Below are positions 7,950 to 62,575 of a stretch of DNA of 64,000 nt, one piece after another (position 1 is the first letter of the stretch; each line of letters opens with the position of its first letter). The stretch is from an uncultured Clostridia bacterium (lineage in GTDB: Bacteria; Bacillota; Clostridia; RUG12999), in assembly GCA_946555455.1 (NCBI GenBank), contig CAMNSU010000001.1, forward strand, positions 16,526 to 80,525, written 5' to 3'. The position numbers and the translations under genes are program-made. The notes below the pieces were generated by a model. It was not told the origin of the DNA, did not search any database, and was given only the letters and a program-made list of their open reading frames with translations.

Positions 7950-8262
7950 TTGGAAATATGAATTAGCGTGCGGTTTGCTTTTCGTCACAGAAAAGCGTTC
8001 AGGGAATACGGTGAAAATCCGTAACAGTCACTGCTACTGTAAGGAAGGACAACCTTTGCAAAAATCCACTGGCAGCTATACCATGCCGGGAAGGGGCAAA
8101 GGAAGGATGAATTCCGAGTCAGGATATCTGGACCGTTCGTTTGGCACAAATACCTTCTGTGTAAAGGGCATCGTGCGAATGGGCAGGGACGATAAAGCGT
8201 CCGGTCTATCACTCCAGATACGCACTATGCCGGTTCTTCAGACAGAACCGGCTTTTTGTATT
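7950..8262 (+). promoter_or_regulatory. Cobalamin (AdoCbl) riboswitch with terminator-type expression platform
   Basis: Hallmarks AGGGAAtacGGTGaAAATCCg (8001-8021), ACTGTAAGG, B12-box tCCACTGGcag (about 8066), GCCGGGAAGG (about 8085). Intrinsic terminator GCCGGTTCT-tcagac-AGAACCGGC plus T-run at 8229-8260. RBS AAGGAGGA at 8283. Confidence 0.8.
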
Positions 8263-10780: not shown

Positions 10781-11077
10781 TCATTTCTTTTCCTCTACAT
10801 AGCGTTCTACTCTCAGCTTCAATTTATATTTTTCCCGCAGGGCGGCTATCTGTGCCATTTGCTCTGATTTATGATGCAAGTCAAGTGCTTCCTGGCTCTG
10901 CCATCGGTCAATTAACAAAACTGTTTCTGTATCGTCCATTGGAAAATAATATTCATATCTTTCATTTCCCGTTTCCGCGCGTACTGCGCTCACAATCCCA
11001 CTCCGTACCATCTCTTCCGCAAATTTTCTGGCATTTCCGTTTTTTCCTGTATAATATAAATGAATGGTAATGCTCAT
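10781..11077 (-). CDS. Antibiotic-biosynthesis-monooxygenase (ABM) domain protein
   Basis: About 98 aa from MSITIHLYYTGKNG, with the ABM-like motif LIDRWQSQEALDLHHKS. Own RBS GAGGGAGGG upstream of ATG 11077. Confidence 0.65.
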   Translation of the reverse strand: MSITIHLYYTGKNGNARKFAEEMVRSGIVSAVRAETGNERYEYYFPMDDTETVLLIDRWQSQEALDLHHKSEQMAQIAALREKYKLKLRVERYVEEKK

Positions 11078-11338
11078 GGCGTTTCCCTCCCTCGATACAA
11101 TCCAATTTATTTTCACATCTTTTTTGGCAGCGGCAAACCACTTGACAGCAAACCGGTTCACGTTTTCGGAAATAGGCGTTGTACCGTCCGCTTGAGGCAA
11201 ACAAAAGTCGAATCTCATGCGGTTCCTAGGGCAGGAAAGCGACCTAAGCCACTGCTCCGTTTTCTCCACGAAATGCGCGGCGGCAAGCGTTGTTTTGCTG
11301 CTTCCGTTCGCGCCGCATATCACAATCCCCTCCGCCAT
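11078..11338 (-). pseudogene. In-frame N-terminal P-loop NTPase fragment (GANGSSKTTLA) fused upstream of the ABM ORF; probable gene remnant
   Basis: 87 codons with a Walker A motif but too short for an NTPase domain. Runs without a stop into the ABM gene, which has its own RBS and start. Confidence 0.4.
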
Positions 11339-11473
11339 ATTTATCTCCGCCGCTCATCAATTTGTCCTCTCATATAGGTGGAAATTTCGTCTCTTAGCAA
11401 TATTCTCTTTTTGACTAGTATACTGTAATAAATGTACTTTTTGGCGCAAAAGTACCAAACATGTAGAATCCTG

Positions 11474-11632
11474 AACTTTTCATTCATGAAATCTTCGGAC
11501 ATACCCTCTGGGGCACGCGCGTGCCGAAGATTTCATACCCTACAGCGTTCGGAGTGCCGCGTCACGCGGCGCGACACGCGAGTGAAGAACGGTGGCAGGG
11601 GGAATTCCCAAGGGGGGGATGAATCGACGGCG
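11474..11632 (+). repeat. R1 structured repeat, copy a (two more copies in tandem at 61364-61747)
   Basis: Shares CTTTTCAtTCATGAAATCTTCGG...CCGAAGATTTCATAC hairpin, GGAGTGCCG..GGCGCGACaCGCGAG core and G-rich 3' end with copies at 61.4-61.7 kb. Confidence 0.7.
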
Positions 11633-11696
11633 TAAGCCGGAGAGAATCCTTTCTTGGAAATCATTATACCATATCTATTCTTTTTATTGCAACAAA

Positions 11697-11748: not shown

Positions 11749-12093
11749 TTAGTCAACCAGTTCCAAAATCGCCATGGGCGCTGCGTCTCCGCGGCGCGGA
11801 CCAGCTTTGATGATTCTGGTATATCCGCCATTTCTTTCTGCGTATTTCGGCGCAATTTCATCGAAGAGTTTCACAACTACTTCACGCTTTGTGATAAAGC
11901 CCAGCGCCTGGCGTTTTGTATGCAAGGTATTTTTCTTTCCAAGAGTAATCATTTTTTCAGCAAGCGAACGAACTTCTTTCGCTTTTGCTTCTGTCGTCAT
12001 GATTTTTCCGTTTTCCAGTAATGATGTTACCAGATTTCTCAGCATCATCATTCTGTGCGCGGTCGGACGACCCAGTTTTCTTGTACCTGGCAT
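11749..12093 (-). CDS. rplQ: 50S ribosomal protein L17
   Basis: Translation matches conserved L17. Confidence 0.95.
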
Positions 12094-27804: not shown

Positions 27805-28127
27805 AACACTTGTCGCCTCCTATATATTGATTACTGCGTCTCTTGTGCGACTCTTTCCGTACACGGTTCCGGGTGTGTCATGAACACCCAAAATAAATAC
27901 CCGGAAGTACGCCTAGCATACAGTCCCGGGTACACATGACGATTCTTTCACAGGCGCGCAGGCAGACCACAGGCGTCCGCCGCTGCTTGTCAAACATTTA
28001 TCGTTCTCTTGTGTACAGTGACTATGCCGCCCGGTTTCTTGAATCGGACATTCTCCATGGAAATTTCCCATTCTCAGATGGAATGCAACCTCCCACTTCA
28101 TCGACTGCCTCGTCACAGCAAGTATTA

Positions 28128-35028: not shown

Positions 35029-35170
35029 CATGTGACTATTATATCATGTCCGCAGGGCGGACTGATATAATTTCGTGCATCTCCGCCGGTTGCCGCGTTT
35101 TTATGCGCGGCGAGGCGGAGGCACTTTTCAAATTCATATAATAGTCACTCATGTGACTATTATATCGCCT
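35029..35170 (+). repeat. R2 composite palindromic element, copy a (second copy at 57401-57532)
   Basis: 34-bp palindrome ATTATATCAtgtccgcagggcggacTGATATAAT (35038-35071). Nested GC hairpin CTCCGCCggttgCCGCG-tttttatg-CGCGGcgaGGCGGAG (35081-35120). Then CACTTTTCA and palindrome ATAATAGTCACtcaTGTGACTATTAT (35138-35163). Confidence 0.7.
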
Positions 35171-35255
35171 GATTCGCCATATGTCAATAGTTTCCATCTT
35201 ATTCCACCATACGCTTTTGAAATAGCGTCGCTGCTATTGTAGGCAAATATGCTAT

Positions 35256-35305
35256 AAAAAGAAAACGGCTGCCGTAGGGCGAGTACGGCAGCCGTTTTCT
35301 TTAGG
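35256..35305. terminator. Bidirectional intrinsic terminator (AAAACGGCTGCCGTA...TACGGCAGCCGTTTT)
   Basis: 15-bp stem flanked by A- and T-runs. Confidence 0.7.
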
Positions 35306-35506
35306 GGTGTTATAAAAGATGATTTTATACACTTCGTTAGACGGCAAAATGACAAAAAAGTTCCGGTTTCAGGGAGAAAAATTTTATTTTTCTCTGCCGC
35401 TTCCCACAGTCACCAACCCCTCCCTCCATTCATACACTATATTGAATCCTAAATTAGTTTTTTCCGGATTGTATACGAAACGTTTAAAATGGGAGGATGG
35501 AAAATC

Positions 35507-41147: not shown

Positions 41148-41550
41148 TCTAAATTATACCATTAAATCGTCTTTTGTGTCAATAAGTCATATAGAGTAGT
41201 ATAAAATAATATCATATGGTATATTTATTCACTAAAAAGTGCGCAACTACTTGTTGATTTCCGGACGGAATTTCCCCATGACGCGTATATCCGCGAACTG
41301 GGGGAAGCGGTGGATATTCCCCTATCCACAAAAATAACGAATGCGCGAAAAGCAGCGTAAAGAAAAAAGATACCAGAGAAAAAGTAAGAGGGGGAGGTGC
41401 CGCAGGCGACGGAGGACATTTTTCGTTGGTACTTTTTTCCTTATGCGGTCGTGGAAAACGCCCCGCACCATCATCAACCGGCAGGACGTATCCGAAAACA
41501 GAATGAAAAAAAATGACTGAATTTGTCGGATATTTTTGGCGCTAAAACAC

Positions 41551-45627: not shown

Positions 45628-45704
45628 TGGTGGATCCTCGGGGACTCGAACCCTGGACCGTCCGGTTATGAGCCGGATGCTCTAACCAACTGAGCTAAGG
45701 ATCC
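45628..45704 (-). tRNA. tRNA-Met (CAT anticodon; Ile2/lysidine type not excluded)
   Basis: Minus-strand read GGATCCTTAGCTCAGTTGGTTAGAGCATCCGGCTCATAACCGGACGGTCCAGGGTTCGAGTCCCCGAGGATCCACCA folds as a cloverleaf with a 7-bp acceptor stem, CAT anticodon and encoded CCA. A terminator-like hairpin GCGACAAAC...GTTTGTCGC lies downstream at 45590-45627. Confidence 0.85.
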
Positions 45705-57150: not shown

Positions 57151-57400
57151 ATTTCATGTATCATTTGTATCAAAAAAACCCCGCTCTGCCGTTGCACATA
57201 ATCACCCTCAAACCTGTATTAACCAGGTGGGTACCACCTCCGGAGATTCATACGTCCCCTGGCACCGGACATAGCGTCCGGCGGGGGCATGTACTACAAA
57301 CCGGAAAGCCGGTTCCCTTGAGAATTCATTGGTTTAAGTAATTCCTGTGTTCGCACATCGCAGGGATTTTCCCATATCCAAAGCGCTCCGCGCTTCCCTT

Positions 57401-60242: not shown

Positions 60243-60357
60243 CTTTGGCAAATGACGCATTGTGGGGCGATATTTTCCGGGAAATGTTCCCCCAATTGTC
60301 GCTACGGGTATATCCCTCGTGAAAAATGTCCTCCGGATTTGGGCTATGCCCAAATCC

Positions 60358-60515
60358 TCCCCCTCTTACTTTTTCTGAGGGAAATACCCTCCGCTCCTTG
60401 CCCCCCATTTTCTCCTCCTTTACTTTTCTTGGGGGATATAGCTTCCGCTCTTTGCCCCCGTCTGCTATCCCTTTTACTTTTTGGGGGCGGGAGGTGCTCC
60501 GCGCTTTGTCCTGTC
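60358..60515. repeat. Three tandem direct repeats of about 54 nt (CT-rich...TTACTTTT...GGGGG...CTCCGCTC.TTGCCCCC), each with an internal hairpin, in a convergent intergenic region
   Basis: Units start at about 60358, 60412 and 60466. Preceded by perfect hairpins GGGTATATCCC and GGATTTGGGC-tat-GCCCAAATCC (60343-60365). Confidence 0.6.
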
Positions 60516-60553
60516 TGCTCCTTGGTTTTTGTTTTGCATAGGTGGCAGCGGAT

Positions 60554-60835
60554 TTAGAGTGCGCCCATATATTTAAGCGTGCGTATTGTATTGCGCAGCA
60601 TACACCGGCGGTGATAGTCAACCTCCAGCGATTCGCCATAGGACATGTCCTCCAGATATTTCTGCGCCTGTTTTCTGTCTTCCGGACGGACAAGCTCTAG
60701 GAGTTTATCACGGCTTTCCTCATAATGTATCTGATATTCATATTCGCTGGGATTATCACATTCAAAATTATTGCAATCCAATACATATAACTGCTCCATA
60801 AATCCCTGAAATACCGAATCAAATGTTTCTCGCAT
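60554..60835 (-). CDS. Hypothetical 93-aa acidic cytoplasmic protein
   Basis: ORF with RBS AAAGGATGA. No recognisable domain. Confidence 0.45.
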   Translation of the reverse strand: MRETFDSVFQGFMEQLYVLDCNNFECDNPSEYEYQIHYEESRDKLLELVRPEDRKQAQKYLEDMSYGESLEVDYHRRCMLRNTIRTLKYMGAL

Positions 60836-60927
60836 ATGTTATCATCCTTTCTAAAACACTAACTAATATTACGGTACTAGTATACCATATCTTTTAGAGT
60901 ATGTCAAGTCTTTTTGGGGGGACAATT

Positions 60928-61362
60928 ATGAAAAACATGTCACAACACTTAATCGAATTGCGCAAAAACTATCAGTTTACGCAAAAACAGGTAGCAGAGA
61001 CTTTAAAAATGAAAGAAAATGCATATCGCCATTACGAGAAAGGACGGAGTATTCCTAATATTGGTTGTCTCATTCAATTAGCTGAATTATACCATACGTC
61101 CATAGAATATATTGTTAGAGGAAATAAGTTGGATAACATATATATTTCTCACAAAATAACGTCGTTTCCGAAACGTTTGAAAGAAATCCGTAAAAGAAAT
61201 CATATGACACAGCTGCAACTAGCCAAATTTTTAGGATTAGAAGAGGTATCATATCAATATTATGAATATGGCACGCATGAACCCAAACTAGAAAATTTGA
61301 TAAAATTAGCAGACCTGTTTCATGTAACGCTGGACGAATTATTGGGACGAAATGAAACATAA
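60928..61362 (+). CDS. XRE-family transcriptional regulator with two helix-turn-helix domains
   Basis: Two Cro/C1-type HTH units (QKQVAETLKMKENAYRHYEKGRSIP; QLQLAKFLGLEEVSYQYYEYGTHEP). Start MKNMSQHL with RBS GGGGGGA. Confidence 0.75.
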   Translation: MKNMSQHLIELRKNYQFTQKQVAETLKMKENAYRHYEKGRSIPNIGCLIQLAELYHTSIEYIVRGNKLDNIYISHKITSFPKRLKEIRKRNHMTQLQLAKFLGLEEVSYQYYEYGTHEPKLENLIKLADLFHVTLDELLGRNET

Positions 61363-61363
61363 A

Positions 61364-61557
61364 GCTGACGGATACGTCACTTTTCAATCATGGAATGTCT
61401 GGACATGCGCCAGACATTCCATACTTTGCGGCGTTTGGAGTGCCGAGGAACGAGGCGCGACGCGAGAGCGAAAAACGCCGTCAGGAGGAGCCCACGAGGG
61501 GGACGCAGTGACAACGACCAACGGGAGATGGAACAAGTCCCTCTCGTGAAGATATGG
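61364..61557 (+). repeat. R1 structured repeat, copy b (tandem unit 1)
   Basis: Begins 2 nt after the XRE stop. Hairpin ATGGAATGTCTGGACATgcgcCAGACATTCCAT. GGAGTGCCG...GGCGCGACGCGAG core. GGGGGAC...GTCCCTC 3' stem. Confidence 0.7.
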
Positions 61558-61747
61558 GCTGACGGATACGTCACTTTTCAATCATGAAATCTTCGGACAT
61601 GTGCCGAAGATTTCATACTTCTCAGTCGCCAGCGTTTCGCTAGGAACGCTGCGCGAGCGAAGGCGACTGCAAAGGGGGATTCCAACAAGGGGGACGGTAT
61701 GACAGCGACAAAGGGAGCTGGAAAGAGTCCCCCTTTTGACCACAATA
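61558..61747 (+). repeat. R1 structured repeat, copy c (tandem unit 2) ending in a terminator-like hairpin immediately upstream of the phosphoesterase RBS
   Basis: Hairpin ATGAAATCTTCGGACATgtGCCGAAGATTTCAT. 3' stem GGGGGAC...GTCCCCC followed by TTTT (61690-61737). Confidence 0.7.
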
Positions 61748-61765
61748 CACGCGGAGGTGGTTTTT

Positions 61766-62575
61766 ATGACTCCTTGGACATGGATTTTATCAGCGGGCGG
61801 GCTTGCCGCCGCGGGCGCAGGCTATGGCATCTTGGAAGCAAAAAGCCTGCGCGTGCGGCGCATTACCATCACCGGCGCGCCTGCGTCGTTGCACGGCAAA
61901 ACCGCCGCCGCATTTTCAGACGTGCATTTCGGGCGATTTGTCACGCCGGCGCAACTGCGCCGCTGCGTGGAAAAAATAAATGACTTGCGCCCCGATTACC
62001 TTTGGTTTTTGGGCGATTTTTCCGACAAACACCGCAGTCACTATGACCTGCAAACGCGGGCGGCTGTGGCAAAACTGCTGCGCGGCTGCGCGCCGCAAGC
62101 GGAAAAACTCGCCGTGCTGGGCAACAACGACTTGCATATGCCCGCCGCGCGTGCATTCAGCGCGGAACTGTTGGCGGCGGGCGGTTTTCGCGTGCTGCAA
62201 AACGAAGCCGTCCGTTTGACAGAGGACGCGTCTGTCATTGGACTGGAGGAATGGAAATATGGAAAGCCGGACGTGCAAAAAGCCTTAAACGGCGCCGCGC
62301 CCTATGTCATTTGTCTCATGCATCACCCTGATTATGCGGATATCAGCGCGCAGCATCAAATTCCTGTCCAGCTATCGGGGCATTCCCACGGCGGGCAGGT
62401 GAAACTGCCGCTGCTTTACCGCTATATGCTGCCGCACGGCGGACGCAAATACCACACGGGCGAATATCAGGTCGGTGCAACGCGCCTTATTATTTCAAAC
62501 GGCGTTGGCGTGCACACGCTGCCGTTCCGTTTTCTTGCCCCGCCCGATATTTTGCATATCACATTTACCGAATAG
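61766..62575 (+). CDS. Membrane-anchored metallophosphoesterase (YkuE-like)
   Basis: N-terminal TM helix MTPWTWILSAGGLAAAGAGYGIL. Calcineurin-like motifs SDVHFG, GDFSD, GNND and HHP. RBS GGAGGTGG. Confidence 0.75.
   Translation: MTPWTWILSAGGLAAAGAGYGILEAKSLRVRRITITGAPASLHGKTAAAFSDVHFGRFVTPAQLRRCVEKINDLRPDYLWFLGDFSDKHRSHYDLQTRAAVAKLLRGCAPQAEKLAVLGNNDLHMPAARAFSAELLAAGGFRVLQNEAVRLTEDASVIGLEEWKYGKPDVQKALNGAAPYVICLMHHPDYADISAQHQIPVQLSGHSHGGQVKLPLLYRYMLPHGGRKYHTGEYQVGATRLIISNGVGVHTLPFRFLAPPDILHITFTE

What the first reader, a model, noticed from the sequence alone, without database searches (positions are those of the whole stretch)
61364..61747. R1: tandem pair of about 194-nt structured repeat units with compensatory stem mutations, between an XRE regulator gene and a membrane phosphoesterase gene
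Each unit starts with a near-identical GCTGACGGATACGTCACTTTTCAATC and then a 12-13-bp perfect hairpin. The hairpin sequence differs between copies, ATGGAATGTCTGG versus ATGAAATCTTCGG, but stays fully paired. That covariation argues for a selected RNA or DNA structure. Each unit then has a conserved GGAGTGCCG...GGCGCGAC.CGCGAG core and a G-rich 3' stem. Only the second unit ends in stem GGGGGAC/GTCCCCC plus TTTT, a terminator, placed 20 nt before the phosphoesterase RBS. This layout resembles a tandem cis-regulatory leader or attenuator. I could not match it to a known riboswitch class. A 65-codon ORF that the track reports on each strand here has exactly the repeat period and is an artefact of the repeat.
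Basis: seen in the sequence. Interest (0 to 1): 0.7.

Follow-up and report, generated by a model that had tools for sequence, protein, structure and literature searches.

The report
Tandem structured RNAs on XRE cassette
Two back-to-back copies of an uncatalogued ~180-base folded RNA lie at the edge of a small acquired regulator cassette in a gut Clostridia genome; the fold is real and conserved, but it is not a dedicated switch for the neighbouring phosphoesterase gene.

Summary
Window 61364-61747 carries two tandem units (194 and 190 nt, about 72% identical). 20 of 48 base pairs differ between them, and 18 of those stay paired in both. A third copy lies at 11472-11662. Homologues in at least four other lineages of gut Clostridia keep the same three-domain fold: 96.7% of cells paired against 84.9% in shuffles, 27 of 48 pairs with changes on both sides, and 88 G-U against 7 A-C cells, so the structure is specific to the + strand. 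Nothing in Rfam 15 matches.

The leader/attenuator reading is only partly right. A sister species with the same pfkB-phosphoesterase synteny has a 139-nt spacer and none of this. So the units belong to a 1.5-kb AT-rich accessory block holding a second structured element "B", an orphan 93-aa gene, a double-HTH XRE gene and the two "A" units. Elsewhere A precedes addB or no gene at all, and its copy number varies between strains.

Best reading: paralogous genes for a new structured non-coding RNA that travels with this cassette. It is probably made by read-through from XRE or from its own promoter. The last unit's P4 stem plus U4 incidentally terminates or insulates transcription. Function is unproven. 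A modular intergenic-repeat origin is the main rival.

The parts
61364..61389 (+). Spacer before unit 1: 14-nt palindrome TGACGGATACGTCA (61366-61379) followed by CTTTTCAATC. It is a weak hairpin plus U-run directly after the XRE stop codon.
   Evidence: -7.9 kcal/mol. In L028 the same AGACGGATACG is the 3' arm of an 11-bp hairpin followed by UUUUUC (-16.2 kcal/mol). The hairpin is not kept in L005/L032.
61376..61553 (+). Unit 1 of RNA element 'A' (full-length match to the covariance model).
   Evidence: cmsearch 191.1 bits, E = 2e-51. Fold -81.9 kcal/mol, z = -6.0.
61390..61422 (+). Unit 1, P2: perfect 13-bp hairpin with loop ACAUGCG.
   Evidence: I5. In the family alignment 7 of 13 pairs show changes on both sides (helix 1).
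61424..61487 (+). Unit 1, Y-shaped domain. P1' is CUUU/GGAG, P3 is CGGCGUUU/AAACGCCG, P3a is GUGCC/GGCGC with a GAGGAACGA loop, and P3b is CGC/GCG.
   Evidence: RNAalifold consensus. Helices 2-5; P3 has 7 of 8 pairs with changes on both sides.
61496..61545 (+). Unit 1, P4: GAGGGGGAC/GUCCCUCUC outer stem, conserved internal loop (UGA / GGAA) and a small inner stem. No U-tract follows.
   Evidence: helices 6-7; -24.8 kcal/mol.
61558..61583 (+). Spacer before unit 2, identical to 61364-61389.
61570..61743 (+). Unit 2 of RNA element 'A'.
   Evidence: cmsearch 183.9 bits. Fold -79.5 kcal/mol, z = -7.5. Against unit 1, 20 of 48 pairs differ, 14 on both sides, and 18 remain paired in both.
61584..61616 (+). 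Unit 2, P2: perfect 13-bp hairpin with loop ACAUGUG.
   Evidence: I6.
61618..61677 (+). Unit 2, Y-shaped domain. P1' is CUUC/GGGG, P3 is CAGUCGCC/GGCGACUG, plus inner hairpins.
   Evidence: (I7).
61687..61737 (+). Unit 2, P4: AAGGGGGAC/GUCCCCCUU followed by UUUU. This is terminator-like and lies about 15-20 nt upstream of the phosphoesterase ribosome-binding site.
   Evidence: -24.6 kcal/mol. The first G-run (61671-61682) can also pair with the same C-run (I8).
11472..11662 (+). Third, solo copy of element A. It sits between an ABM-domain gene (10781-11338, - strand) and rplQ (11749-12093, - strand). It lacks the GCTGACGGATACGTCA spacer and carries an insertion in the P2 loop.
   Evidence: (160.7 bits). 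The same site holds A in L044 and L051, but an unrelated 573-aa gene in L042, L043 and L050.
11441..11469 (+). Sigma-70-like promoter TTGGCG-17-TAGAAT, 15 nt upstream of P2 of copy 3.
   Evidence: 9 of 12 matches. This is a consensus match only.
60928..61362 (+). XRE-family gene with two HTH_3 domains (144 aa from the ATG that homologues use). AT-rich (33% GC). Its stop codon abuts unit 1.
   Evidence: (only 7 protein clusters among 5.8 billion).
60554..60835 (-). Orphan 93-aa gene, divergent from the XRE gene and always paired with it.
   Evidence: no family match; 8 clusters; four-helix model, pLDDT 70, no fold match.
60285..60412 (-). Second structured element 'B', a long nested hairpin downstream of the 93-aa gene. 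Its 5' half is repeated as 54-nt tandem sub-units across 60360-60513.
   Evidence: D1; 30 pairs, 18 with compensatory changes. In L017 and L028, B is inserted into A between P3 and P4.
61766..62575 (+). Metallophosphoesterase gene (YaeI/LpxG-like), the host gene downstream of the array. Listed as context, not as part of the element.

Best explanation
The two units are tandem paralogues of a previously uncatalogued structured non-coding RNA, called 'A' here, about 175-190 nt long. It folds on the + strand into three domains:
- P2, a 13-bp hairpin with an ACAUGYG loop.
- A Y-shaped P1'-P3-P3a/P3b domain.
- P4, a long G/C-rich hairpin with a conserved internal loop.
Purine-rich, Shine-Dalgarno-like runs (AGGGGGAUUCC and ACAAGGGGGAC) link the domains.

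Shown:
- The fold is conserved by compensatory change, both among three diverged copies in this genome and in other lineages.
- It is strand-specific.
- The tandem pair is the right-hand edge of a 1.5-kb AT-rich accessory block (element B, 93-aa gene, double-HTH XRE gene, A, A). This block sits between pfkB and the phosphoesterase gene and is absent from a syntenic sister species.
- The family is not tied to any particular downstream gene.

Inferred:
- The tandem copies are transcribed as a 3' extension of the XRE mRNA, by read-through of the weak TGACGGAUACGUCA-CUUUUC hairpin. Solo copies use their own sigma-70-type promoter.
- Each unit folds independently into a stable RNA.
- The RNA acts as RNA, in trans. 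I would guess a riboregulator or protein/ribosome-site decoy working through its exposed G-runs, which resemble the XRE gene's own UUGGGGGGAC ribosome-binding site.
- P4-U4 of the last unit doubles as a terminator or insulator. This makes the array a de facto 5' leader of the phosphoesterase gene in this genome only.
For: Real and non-random.

Conserved structure:
- RNAalifold on 8 sequences gives 48 pairs, 22 of them compensatory.
- On 19 model-aligned copies, 96.7% of cells are paired against 84.9% in shuffles (0 of 500 shuffles reach it). 27 pairs show changes on both sides against 15.2 in shuffles. Slid controls give 44-49% paired.
- Unit 1 against unit 2: 20 of 48 pairs differ and 18 remain paired in both. 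Paired columns diverge more (35%) than unpaired ones (25%).

Strand: 88 G-U/U-G cells against 7 A-C/C-A. The + strand also folds 9-15 kcal/mol better.

Non-coding.

Paralogue family: exactly 3 copies in the window with filters off. Homologues are in L007/L022, L017, L021, L028, L032 and L044.

Cassette linkage:
- A lies downstream of the XRE gene in the window, L001-L005, L021, L023, L028 and L032.
- It lies downstream of the 92-aa gene in L007-type loci.
- Cassette genes are 33% GC against about 55% in the flanks.
- The empty site in L036-L038 is shown.

Own promoter for solo copies: TTGGCG-17-TAGAAT before copy 3 and TTGTCA-16-GAAAAT before the L021 copy. No promoter-like site lies inside the tandem array.

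G-run / XRE ribosome-binding-site resemblance: read directly. In L002/L003 the 3' flank of element B is the ribosome-binding site of an XRE paralogue.
Against: - No transcript data exist. Promoter hits are weak consensus matches (9 of 12), at roughly background frequency.
- P4 is followed by a U-tract in only some copies, so there is no consistent sRNA terminator.
- No target, seed or protein partner was identified. The trans-acting step is inference only.
- In two assemblies (L002, L004) the P2 arms are chimeric, with 2-3 mismatches. Selection on P2 may therefore be relaxed, or recombination frequent.
- A and B form mosaics: A5'-B-A3' in L017 and L028, partial A fused to B in L002/L003, and a B-like insertion in the P2 loop of copy 3. 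Contigs often break at these elements. Both behaviours are as typical of repeat elements as of RNA genes.
- The covariation alignment was fitted to the model and holds only about 6-7 independent lineages.
Confidence: 0.45

Rival explanations
1. Modular intergenic repeat. A and B are two families of structured, transcribed, non-autonomous repeats, comparable to pneumococcal BOX or enterobacterial ERIC elements. They spread or recombine between intergenic sites. They have no dedicated trans function and at most affect mRNA stability or termination of their neighbours.
For: - Modularity and mosaics: A5'-B-A3' composites, partial A fused to B, 54-nt sub-repeats of B in 2.3 tandem copies, and unit number varying from 1 to at least 3 between strains.
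- Additional B-like core at 41355-41440 and an A-5'-like fragment at 35120-35170.
- Assemblies break at the elements.
- Occupancy of intergenic sites differs between strains.
Against: - Copies within one genome are only 65-72% identical, yet 18 of the 20 pairs that differ between units 1 and 2 stay paired. This looks like long-term selection on each copy rather than a recent burst or decay.
- No terminal inverted repeats and no target-site duplication at unit ends.
- Very rare: one GTDB species carries the 26-mer, and there are 4 true hits in 241 million metagenome records.
- Conserved unpaired nucleotides in loops and junctions.
Confidence: 0.25
2. The units form a tandem cis-regulatory leader (riboswitch or attenuator) that senses a signal and controls the phosphoesterase gene through the P4-U4 terminator.
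For: - The array sits directly upstream of the ribosome-binding site, and P4-U4 is terminator-like.
- No promoter-like site lies between XRE and the ATG.
- G-run 1 and G-run 2 can both pair with the C-run (I8).
- In L021, P4-U5 also precedes a ribosome-binding site.
Against: - Absent upstream of the syntenic orthologue in a sister species and of more distant orthologues.
- Downstream genes are unrelated (phosphoesterase, addB) or absent.
- Unit number is variable.
- The U-tract is not conserved.
- The alternative pairing swaps one stem before the U-run for another, so it would not switch termination.
- No Rfam aptamer match.
Confidence: 0.1
3. DNA-level sites. The palindromes would be operators for the XRE paralogues, or recombination or single-strand DNA sites used to move or amplify the cassette.
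For: - The P2 hairpin and TGACGGATACGTCA are perfect DNA palindromes next to a gene for a DNA-binding protein.
- Co-varying half-sites could track paralogue specificity.
- Cassette and unit copy number vary, and the cassette sits at unrelated sites in different genera.
- P2 arms are chimeric in L002/L004.
Against: - 88 G-U against 7 A-C cells means the structure exists on one strand only. That excludes double-stranded operators for most helices.
- Neither palindrome occurs in the XRE/93-aa promoter region.
- There is no integrase, transposase or HUH gene in the cassette.
- P3 and P4 have bulges, junctions and wobble pairs typical of RNA.
- A strand-specific single-stranded DNA form cannot be fully excluded, because G-T wobble pairs are tolerated.
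Confidence: 0.07
4. A self-processing or processing-signal RNA. Each unit would carry a self-cleaving ribozyme or RNase site that cuts the XRE-A-A transcript into unit-length RNAs.
For: - Head-to-tail units with an identical 29-nt junction.
- No consistent gene association, a complex conserved junction and internal loops. These features are shared by several self-cleaving ribozyme classes; that comparison rests on my own knowledge.
Against: - No match to any ribozyme family in Rfam, even at E = 10.
- Solo copies lack the junction sequence.
- Nothing computational can show cleavage.
Confidence: 0.05

Closest known systems
Sibling (multicopy) small RNAs, such as Listeria LhrC1-5 with lhrC1-4 in tandem, Pseudomonas PrrF1/2 and E. 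coli OmrA/B (from my own knowledge)
   Same: Several diverged paralogues in one genome. Two sit head to tail and one is solo. All are intergenic and non-coding, with structure kept by compensatory change. Some copies have promoter-like sites and a terminator-like 3' hairpin.
   Different: About 180 nt with three elaborate domains, against roughly 100 nt for LhrC. No conserved Rho-independent terminator. The exposed motifs are G-rich rather than C/U-rich. The tandem copies lack their own promoters. No sequence relation: LhrC scores 32.6 bits against a 110-bit threshold on one locus only.
Modular structured intergenic repeats: BOX elements of Streptococcus pneumoniae and ERIC/IRU of enterobacteria (from my own knowledge)
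   Same: Built from modules that occur in variable number and combination. They are strongly folding, lie in transcribed intergenic regions, and show presence/absence polymorphism between strains.
   Different: BOX and ERIC are present in about 100 or more copies per genome, with high similarity between copies. Here there are only 3 copies in 64 kb, at 65-72% identity, with compensated stems. The element is tightly linked to one two-gene cassette and is extremely rare in public data.
Tandem riboswitches and leaders, such as tandem glycine aptamers and tandem T-boxes (from my own knowledge)
   Same: Two similar structured units in series upstream of a gene, the last ending in a hairpin plus U-run.
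   Different: No conserved association with the downstream gene, no conserved expression platform, variable unit number, and no aptamer match.
Non-coding RNAs of phage or plasmid immunity and control regions with an XRE-type repressor, such as P1/P7 c4 RNA and the pCF10 prgX/Anti-Q system (from my own knowledge)
   Same: A structured RNA encoded next to, and probably co-transcribed with, an XRE-family repressor that is divergent from a small partner gene.
   Different: No phage or plasmid context: no blastn match in 50,697 phage or 72,556 plasmid records, and no IMG/VR pattern hit. No antisense overlap with a target is evident. The Rfam C4 model does not match.

Membership tests
Riboswitch / cis-regulatory leader | Conserved position upstream of orthologous or functionally related genes | tested here: not met
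   The syntenic sister locus and more distant phosphoesterase orthologues lack it. Other copies precede addB or no co-directional gene.
Riboswitch / cis-regulatory leader | Conserved expression platform (terminator/antiterminator, or sequestration of the ribosome-binding site) | tested here: not met
   A U-tract follows P4 only in unit 2 and L021, and partly in L032. It is absent in unit 1, L005, L004, L007 and copy 3.
Riboswitch / cis-regulatory leader | Match to a described aptamer or leader family | tested here: not met
   Rfam 15 at gathering threshold and at E-values of 1-10 on units 1-2, copy 3 and four homologous loci gave only chance-level hits.
Riboswitch / cis-regulatory leader | Ligand- or signal-dependent conformational change | not testable with these tools
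   Needs in-line probing or reporter assays.
Trans-acting / sibling sRNA | Intergenic, non-coding, with several paralogous copies per genome | tested here: met
   Three copies at two loci. The ORF frames are not conserved.
Trans-acting / sibling sRNA | Own promoter | tested here: inconclusive
   Sigma-70-like sites lie 10-16 nt before P2 of copy 3 and of the L021 copy. None precedes units 1 or 2.
Trans-acting / sibling sRNA | Rho-independent terminator at the 3' end | tested here: inconclusive
   P4 plus a U-run is present in a minority of copies.
Trans-acting / sibling sRNA | Conserved accessible seed with identifiable targets, or a protein partner | not tested
   Conserved unpaired G-runs and the P2 loop were noted. 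No target prediction was attempted, for lack of an annotated genome.
MITE / IS-derived element | Terminal inverted repeats and target-site duplication | tested here: not met
   No inverted repeat joins the unit ends. No duplication was seen at the copy-3 site when compared with L043/L050.
MITE / IS-derived element | Many near-identical copies, or a related transposase-bearing master element | tested here: inconclusive
   Three copies at 65-72% identity in 64 kb. No transposase or integrase domain in the cassette genes. The rest of the genome could not be scanned.
BOX/ERIC-like modular intergenic repeats | Modules combined in variable number and order, with strong stem-loop potential | tested here: met
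   A5'-B-A3' composites, 54-nt sub-repeats and 1 to at least 3 units.
BOX/ERIC-like modular intergenic repeats | High copy number dispersed over the chromosome | not testable with these tools
   Only 64 kb plus fetched loci are available. Rarity in public collections argues against it.
Type III toxin-antitoxin (ToxI-like RNA) | Short (~36-nt) tandem repeats followed by an endoribonuclease toxin gene | tested here: not met
   The period is 194 nt, and the downstream gene is a metallophosphoesterase. PADLOC gives only generic HTH hits.
Retron msr-msd / reverse-transcriptase-associated ncRNA | Adjacent reverse transcriptase gene | tested here: not met
   None of the neighbouring genes scanned against Pfam has a reverse-transcriptase domain.
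Intrinsic terminator | G+C-rich hairpin immediately followed by a U-run | tested here: met
   Met for unit 2's P4 only (61687-61737). This explains 50 nt of a 384-nt feature.

The most novel reading that the evidence does not exclude
A and B could be the cis-acting, strand-specifically folded ends of a new kind of minimal mobile or amplifiable cassette: B, then the 92-aa gene, then the XRE gene, then A. The cassette has no recombinase of its own. Its ends would be recognised in trans, or the RNAs themselves would guide the rearrangement.

This reading would account for several observations:
- The cassette sits at unrelated chromosomal sites in different genera.
- The cassette and the units are tandemly amplified.
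- Breakpoints fall in hairpin loops (chimeric P2 arms).
- B is inserted at the G-runs and loops of A.

A related variant is that the RNAs are decoys carrying copies of the XRE ribosome-binding-site motif, forming a three-part RNA-protein switch with the XRE and 92-aa proteins.
Probability: 0.12. Interest if true: 0.8.

Novelty: new member of a known kind. Interest (0 to 1): 0.5.

Why it matters
- It adds a well-supported, uncatalogued structured RNA family, and a second one (B), to the orphan RNAs of gut Clostridia, a group with very few characterised non-coding RNAs.
- The family is tied to a tiny two-gene XRE cassette of unknown function. The cassette varies in copy number between strains and sits at different sites in different genera. 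That makes it a compact system for asking how small accessory regulators and their RNAs spread and act.
- It is also a cautionary example. A structured tandem element directly upstream of a gene, ending in a terminator, looks like a riboswitch. The comparative data show it arrived with a neighbouring insertion.

Tried and rejected
**Searches that found nothing**
- Rfam at gathering threshold and at permissive E-values: chance-level hits only.
- blastn against phage and plasmid collections: no match.
- Three pattern scans of IMG/VR for the P4, P3/G-run and B cores: no match.
- Literature search for a described XRE-linked structured RNA in Clostridia: nothing relevant.

**Searches that were limited**
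- The exact 26-mer scan of GTDB genomes found only the same species.
- The metagenome pattern scan gave 4 true hits and 2 chance hits, L019 and L020.

**The 92/93-aa protein**
- No match in Pfam, PHROGs, PADLOC or NCBIfam.
- The AlphaFold model is a four-helix bundle (pLDDT 70) with no PDB fold match at E < 1. The afdb50 library was unavailable.

**Ideas dropped**
- A 10-mer, ACTAGTATAC, is shared by the XRE promoter and the region upstream of copy 3. It looked like a possible operator but is absent from the homologous loci, so I dropped it.
- A K-turn reading of the P4 internal loop: the non-bulged strand has four extra nucleotides, so it is not a simple K-turn. This was judged by eye, not tested.
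- CsrA-sponge, RNase P-like and group II domain V resemblances were considered from memory. None is supported by any search.
Full report
**1. Observation**

Window 61364-61747 holds two head-to-tail units of 194 and 190 nt.
- The 26-mer GCTGACGGATACGTCACTTTTCAATC starts both units. It occurs nowhere else in the window and in none of 100 shuffles.
- The units align over 196 columns. The first 29 nt are identical, and BLAST gives about 72% identity overall.
- Each has a perfect 13-bp hairpin whose arms differ between units at five positions but stay complementary (I5 and I6).
- Each then has a long stem of different sequence: GCGGCGUUU/AAACGCCG in unit 1 and CAGUCGCC/GGCGACUG in unit 2. A G-rich 3' hairpin follows.
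- As RNA, the + strands fold at -81.9 and -79.5 kcal/mol (z = -6.0 and -7.5). The - strands reach only -67.0 and -70.6 kcal/mol.
- Only unit 2 ends in GGGGGAC/GUCCCCC plus UUUU, about 15-20 nt before the phosphoesterase ribosome-binding site.
- The 65-codon ORFs are not conserved between units.

The description is correct apart from details. The GGAGTGCCG...GGCGCGAC core belongs to unit 1 and the third copy, not to unit 2.

**2. A family with a conserved fold**

BLAST and a covariance model found a third copy at 11472-11662 (+), between an ABM-domain gene and rplQ. With filters off, nothing else in the 64 kb matches except a 17-bit partial at 35120-35310.

Homologues outside this species came from three routes:
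- One GTDB MAG of the same species (L001).
- Proteins neighbouring the element.
- A metagenome pattern scan.

The homologues are:
- L021 and L023: downstream of an XRE gene, and in L021 upstream of addB.
- L032: between XRE and the phosphoesterase gene in another species.
- L017 and L028: A with a second element inserted.
- L044 and L051: at the rplQ site.
- L007, L009, L012, L013, L016 and L022: another genus, next to gyrA.

RNAalifold on eight sequences gives 48 pairs. P2 has 13 bp, P1' 4 bp, P3 8 bp, P3a 5 bp, P3b 3 bp and P4 9+2+4 bp. 22 of the 48 pairs are compensatory.

On 19 model-aligned copies:
- 96.7% of cells are paired, against 84.9% after shuffling (0 of 500 shuffles reach it).
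- 27 pairs show changes on both sides, against 15.2 after shuffling.
- Structures slid by 1-3 columns give 44-49% paired.

Further support:
- G-U/U-G cells outnumber A-C/C-A cells by 88 to 7. The structure therefore exists on the + strand only.
- Between units 1 and 2, 20 of 48 pairs differ, 14 on both sides, and 18 remain paired in both.
- Paired columns diverge more than unpaired ones, 35% against 25%.

Caveats: the alignment was fitted to the model and contains only about 6-7 independent lineages. In L002 and L004 the P2 arms are chimeric, with 2-3 mismatches.

**3. Context: an accessory cassette, not a phosphoesterase leader**

Upstream lie a double-HTH XRE gene (60928-61362) and a divergent orphan 93-aa gene (60554-60835, - strand).
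- Both are about 33% GC, in a genome region of about 55% GC.
- Both protein families are extremely rare: 7 and 8 clusters among 5.8 billion proteins.
- They always occur together.

Downstream of the 93-aa gene, on the - strand, is a second structured element. I call it B (60285-60412, with 54-nt sub-repeats to 60513). It has 30 consensus pairs, 18 of them compensatory.

A sister species has the same gene order and a phosphoesterase 73% identical to this one. There the stop codon of pfkB is followed by 139 nt and then the phosphoesterase ATG. It has no A, no B and no cassette genes. More distant orthologues also lack A. The 1.5-kb block at 60243-61765 is therefore an insertion.

Within the species the block is fluid.
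- It carries one to three XRE paralogues and one to at least three A units.
- In another genus the cassette lies beside gyrA. There A sits on the 92-aa gene's strand, between two cassette copies, and is absent when there is one copy.
- Copy 3 has no co-directional downstream gene. In other strains its site holds an unrelated 573-aa gene.
- In L021, A precedes addB.
- The U-run after P4 is not conserved.

These facts rule out a dedicated riboswitch or attenuator for the phosphoesterase. No promoter-like site lies between XRE and the phosphoesterase ATG. In this genome the array is therefore probably part of that gene's 5' untranslated region by accident of insertion.

**4. What it is not**

- No Rfam 15 family matches any copy or B, even at E-values of 1-10.
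- No phage, plasmid or IMG/VR sequence matches.
- Unit ends are not inverted repeats, and no target duplication is seen.
- The cassette genes have no transposase, integrase or reverse-transcriptase domain.
- PADLOC gives only generic HTH hits.
- The 92-aa protein models as a four-helix bundle with no informative fold match.

**5. Most likely mechanism**

Shown: a strand-specific, three-domain fold is maintained by compensatory change in diverged paralogues and orthologues. The element travels with the cassette.

Inferred:
- The spacer hairpin TGACGGAUACGUCA plus CUUUUC after the XRE stop codon is weak (-7.9 kcal/mol). In L028 it is replaced by a stronger 11-bp hairpin (-16.2 kcal/mol).
- The tandem units are therefore probably made by read-through of the XRE transcript.
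- Solo copies have sigma-70-like sites 10-16 nt before P2.
- The conserved unpaired segments are purine runs (AGGGGGAUUCC and ACAAGGGGGAC). They resemble the XRE gene's own ribosome-binding site UUGGGGGGAC. In L002/L003 the 3' flank of B actually serves as the ribosome-binding site of an XRE paralogue.
- I therefore favour an RNA that acts as RNA, as a riboregulator or decoy linked to the cassette's own control. P4-U4 of the last unit would act as a terminator or insulator towards the host gene.
- I put this at about 0.45.

**6. Rivals**

- **Modular intergenic repeat, 0.25.** A and B would be BOX/ERIC-like repeats. The mosaics, sub-repeats, strain polymorphism and contig breaks support this. 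Low copy number, deep divergence with compensated stems, and extreme rarity argue against it.
- **Leader or attenuator, 0.1.**
- **DNA-level operators or recombination sites, 0.07.** The 88:7 wobble asymmetry argues against this, as does the absence of the palindromes from the XRE promoter.
- **Self-processing RNA, 0.05.** This is untestable here.

**7. Novelty and verdict**

This is a new, well-supported structured RNA family, with a companion element B. It belongs to a known general kind: orphan bacterial non-coding RNAs or sibling sRNAs on accessory DNA.

It is worth an Rfam entry and a transcript check, but it is not a new riboswitch. Interest is 0.5.

The most novel reading still open, at about 0.12, is that A and B are the folded ends or guide-like RNAs of a minimal mobile or amplifiable cassette. 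A related variant is that they are ribosome-binding-site decoys in a three-part switch.

Noticed in passing
window 60285-60513 (- strand): Second structured element 'B' lies downstream of the 93-aa gene. It is a long nested hairpin whose inner stem is hypervariable but always paired. Its 5' half is repeated as 54-nt tandem units. It is present in every cassette-bearing locus of two clades. In L017 and L028 it is inserted into A.
   Followed up: yes
window 41355-41440 (+): A B-like core in an unrelated intergenic region, including a 21-nt exact match CAGAAAAAGTAAGAGGGGGAG followed by GGAGGACATTTTTCG. B is therefore also dispersed.
   Followed up: partly
window 35075-35170 (+): A long hairpin is followed by CACTTTTCAAATTC and then a 12-bp perfect hairpin (ATATAATAGTCA/TGACTATTATAT). 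This is the same layout as the 5' end of A. The covariance-model hit is weak (17 bits, E = 0.002).
   Followed up: no
L002:4733-6435, L003:2933-4635, L001:6501-7534: Arrays of two or three XRE paralogues, about 50% identical as proteins. Their last ~55 nt are nearly identical at the DNA level. By eye, the window's single XRE gene looks like a recombinant between paralogues.
   Followed up: partly
L002:6455-6700, L004:617-870: The P2 hairpin arms are swapped between unit types: a left arm of one type with the right arm of the other, giving 2-3 mismatches. This suggests recombination with breakpoints in the hairpin loop. Assembly error is not excluded.
   Followed up: no
L023:1-430 (- strand) and L021:640-1000: Between XRE and A lies a 23-codon hydrophobic ORF (MKYILRILGIVLIILVVFSIKAQ, read in L023). 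In L021 a perfect TTGACA-17-TATAAT promoter lies on the opposite strand. The layout resembles a type I toxin-antitoxin.
   Followed up: no
window 11340-11670; L042/L043/L050: The site between the ABM-domain gene and rplQ is polymorphic. It holds A plus about 120 nt of AT-rich upstream sequence in some strains, and an AT-rich orphan 573-aa gene (no Pfam or PADLOC match) in others.
   Followed up: partly
window 11414-11423 and 60876-60885: The exact 10-mer ACTAGTATAC occurs only upstream of copy 3 and in the XRE/93-aa divergent promoter, where it overlaps a -10 TATACT. It is not conserved in homologous loci, so it is probably coincidence.
   Followed up: yes
window 11500-11525; L034:1915-1944; L023 (start of the truncated A copy): The insertion in the P2 loop of copy 3 (ACCCTCTGGGGCACGCGCG) matches a sequence in the B-like region of L034 and in the A copy of L023. 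This is further mosaicism between A and B.
   Followed up: no
window 7956-8149 (+), 57174-57369 (-), 28024-28109 (-), 45631-45704 (-): Ordinary Rfam features: a cobalamin riboswitch, 6S RNA, the S10-Clostridia ribosomal leader and a tRNA.
   Followed up: no
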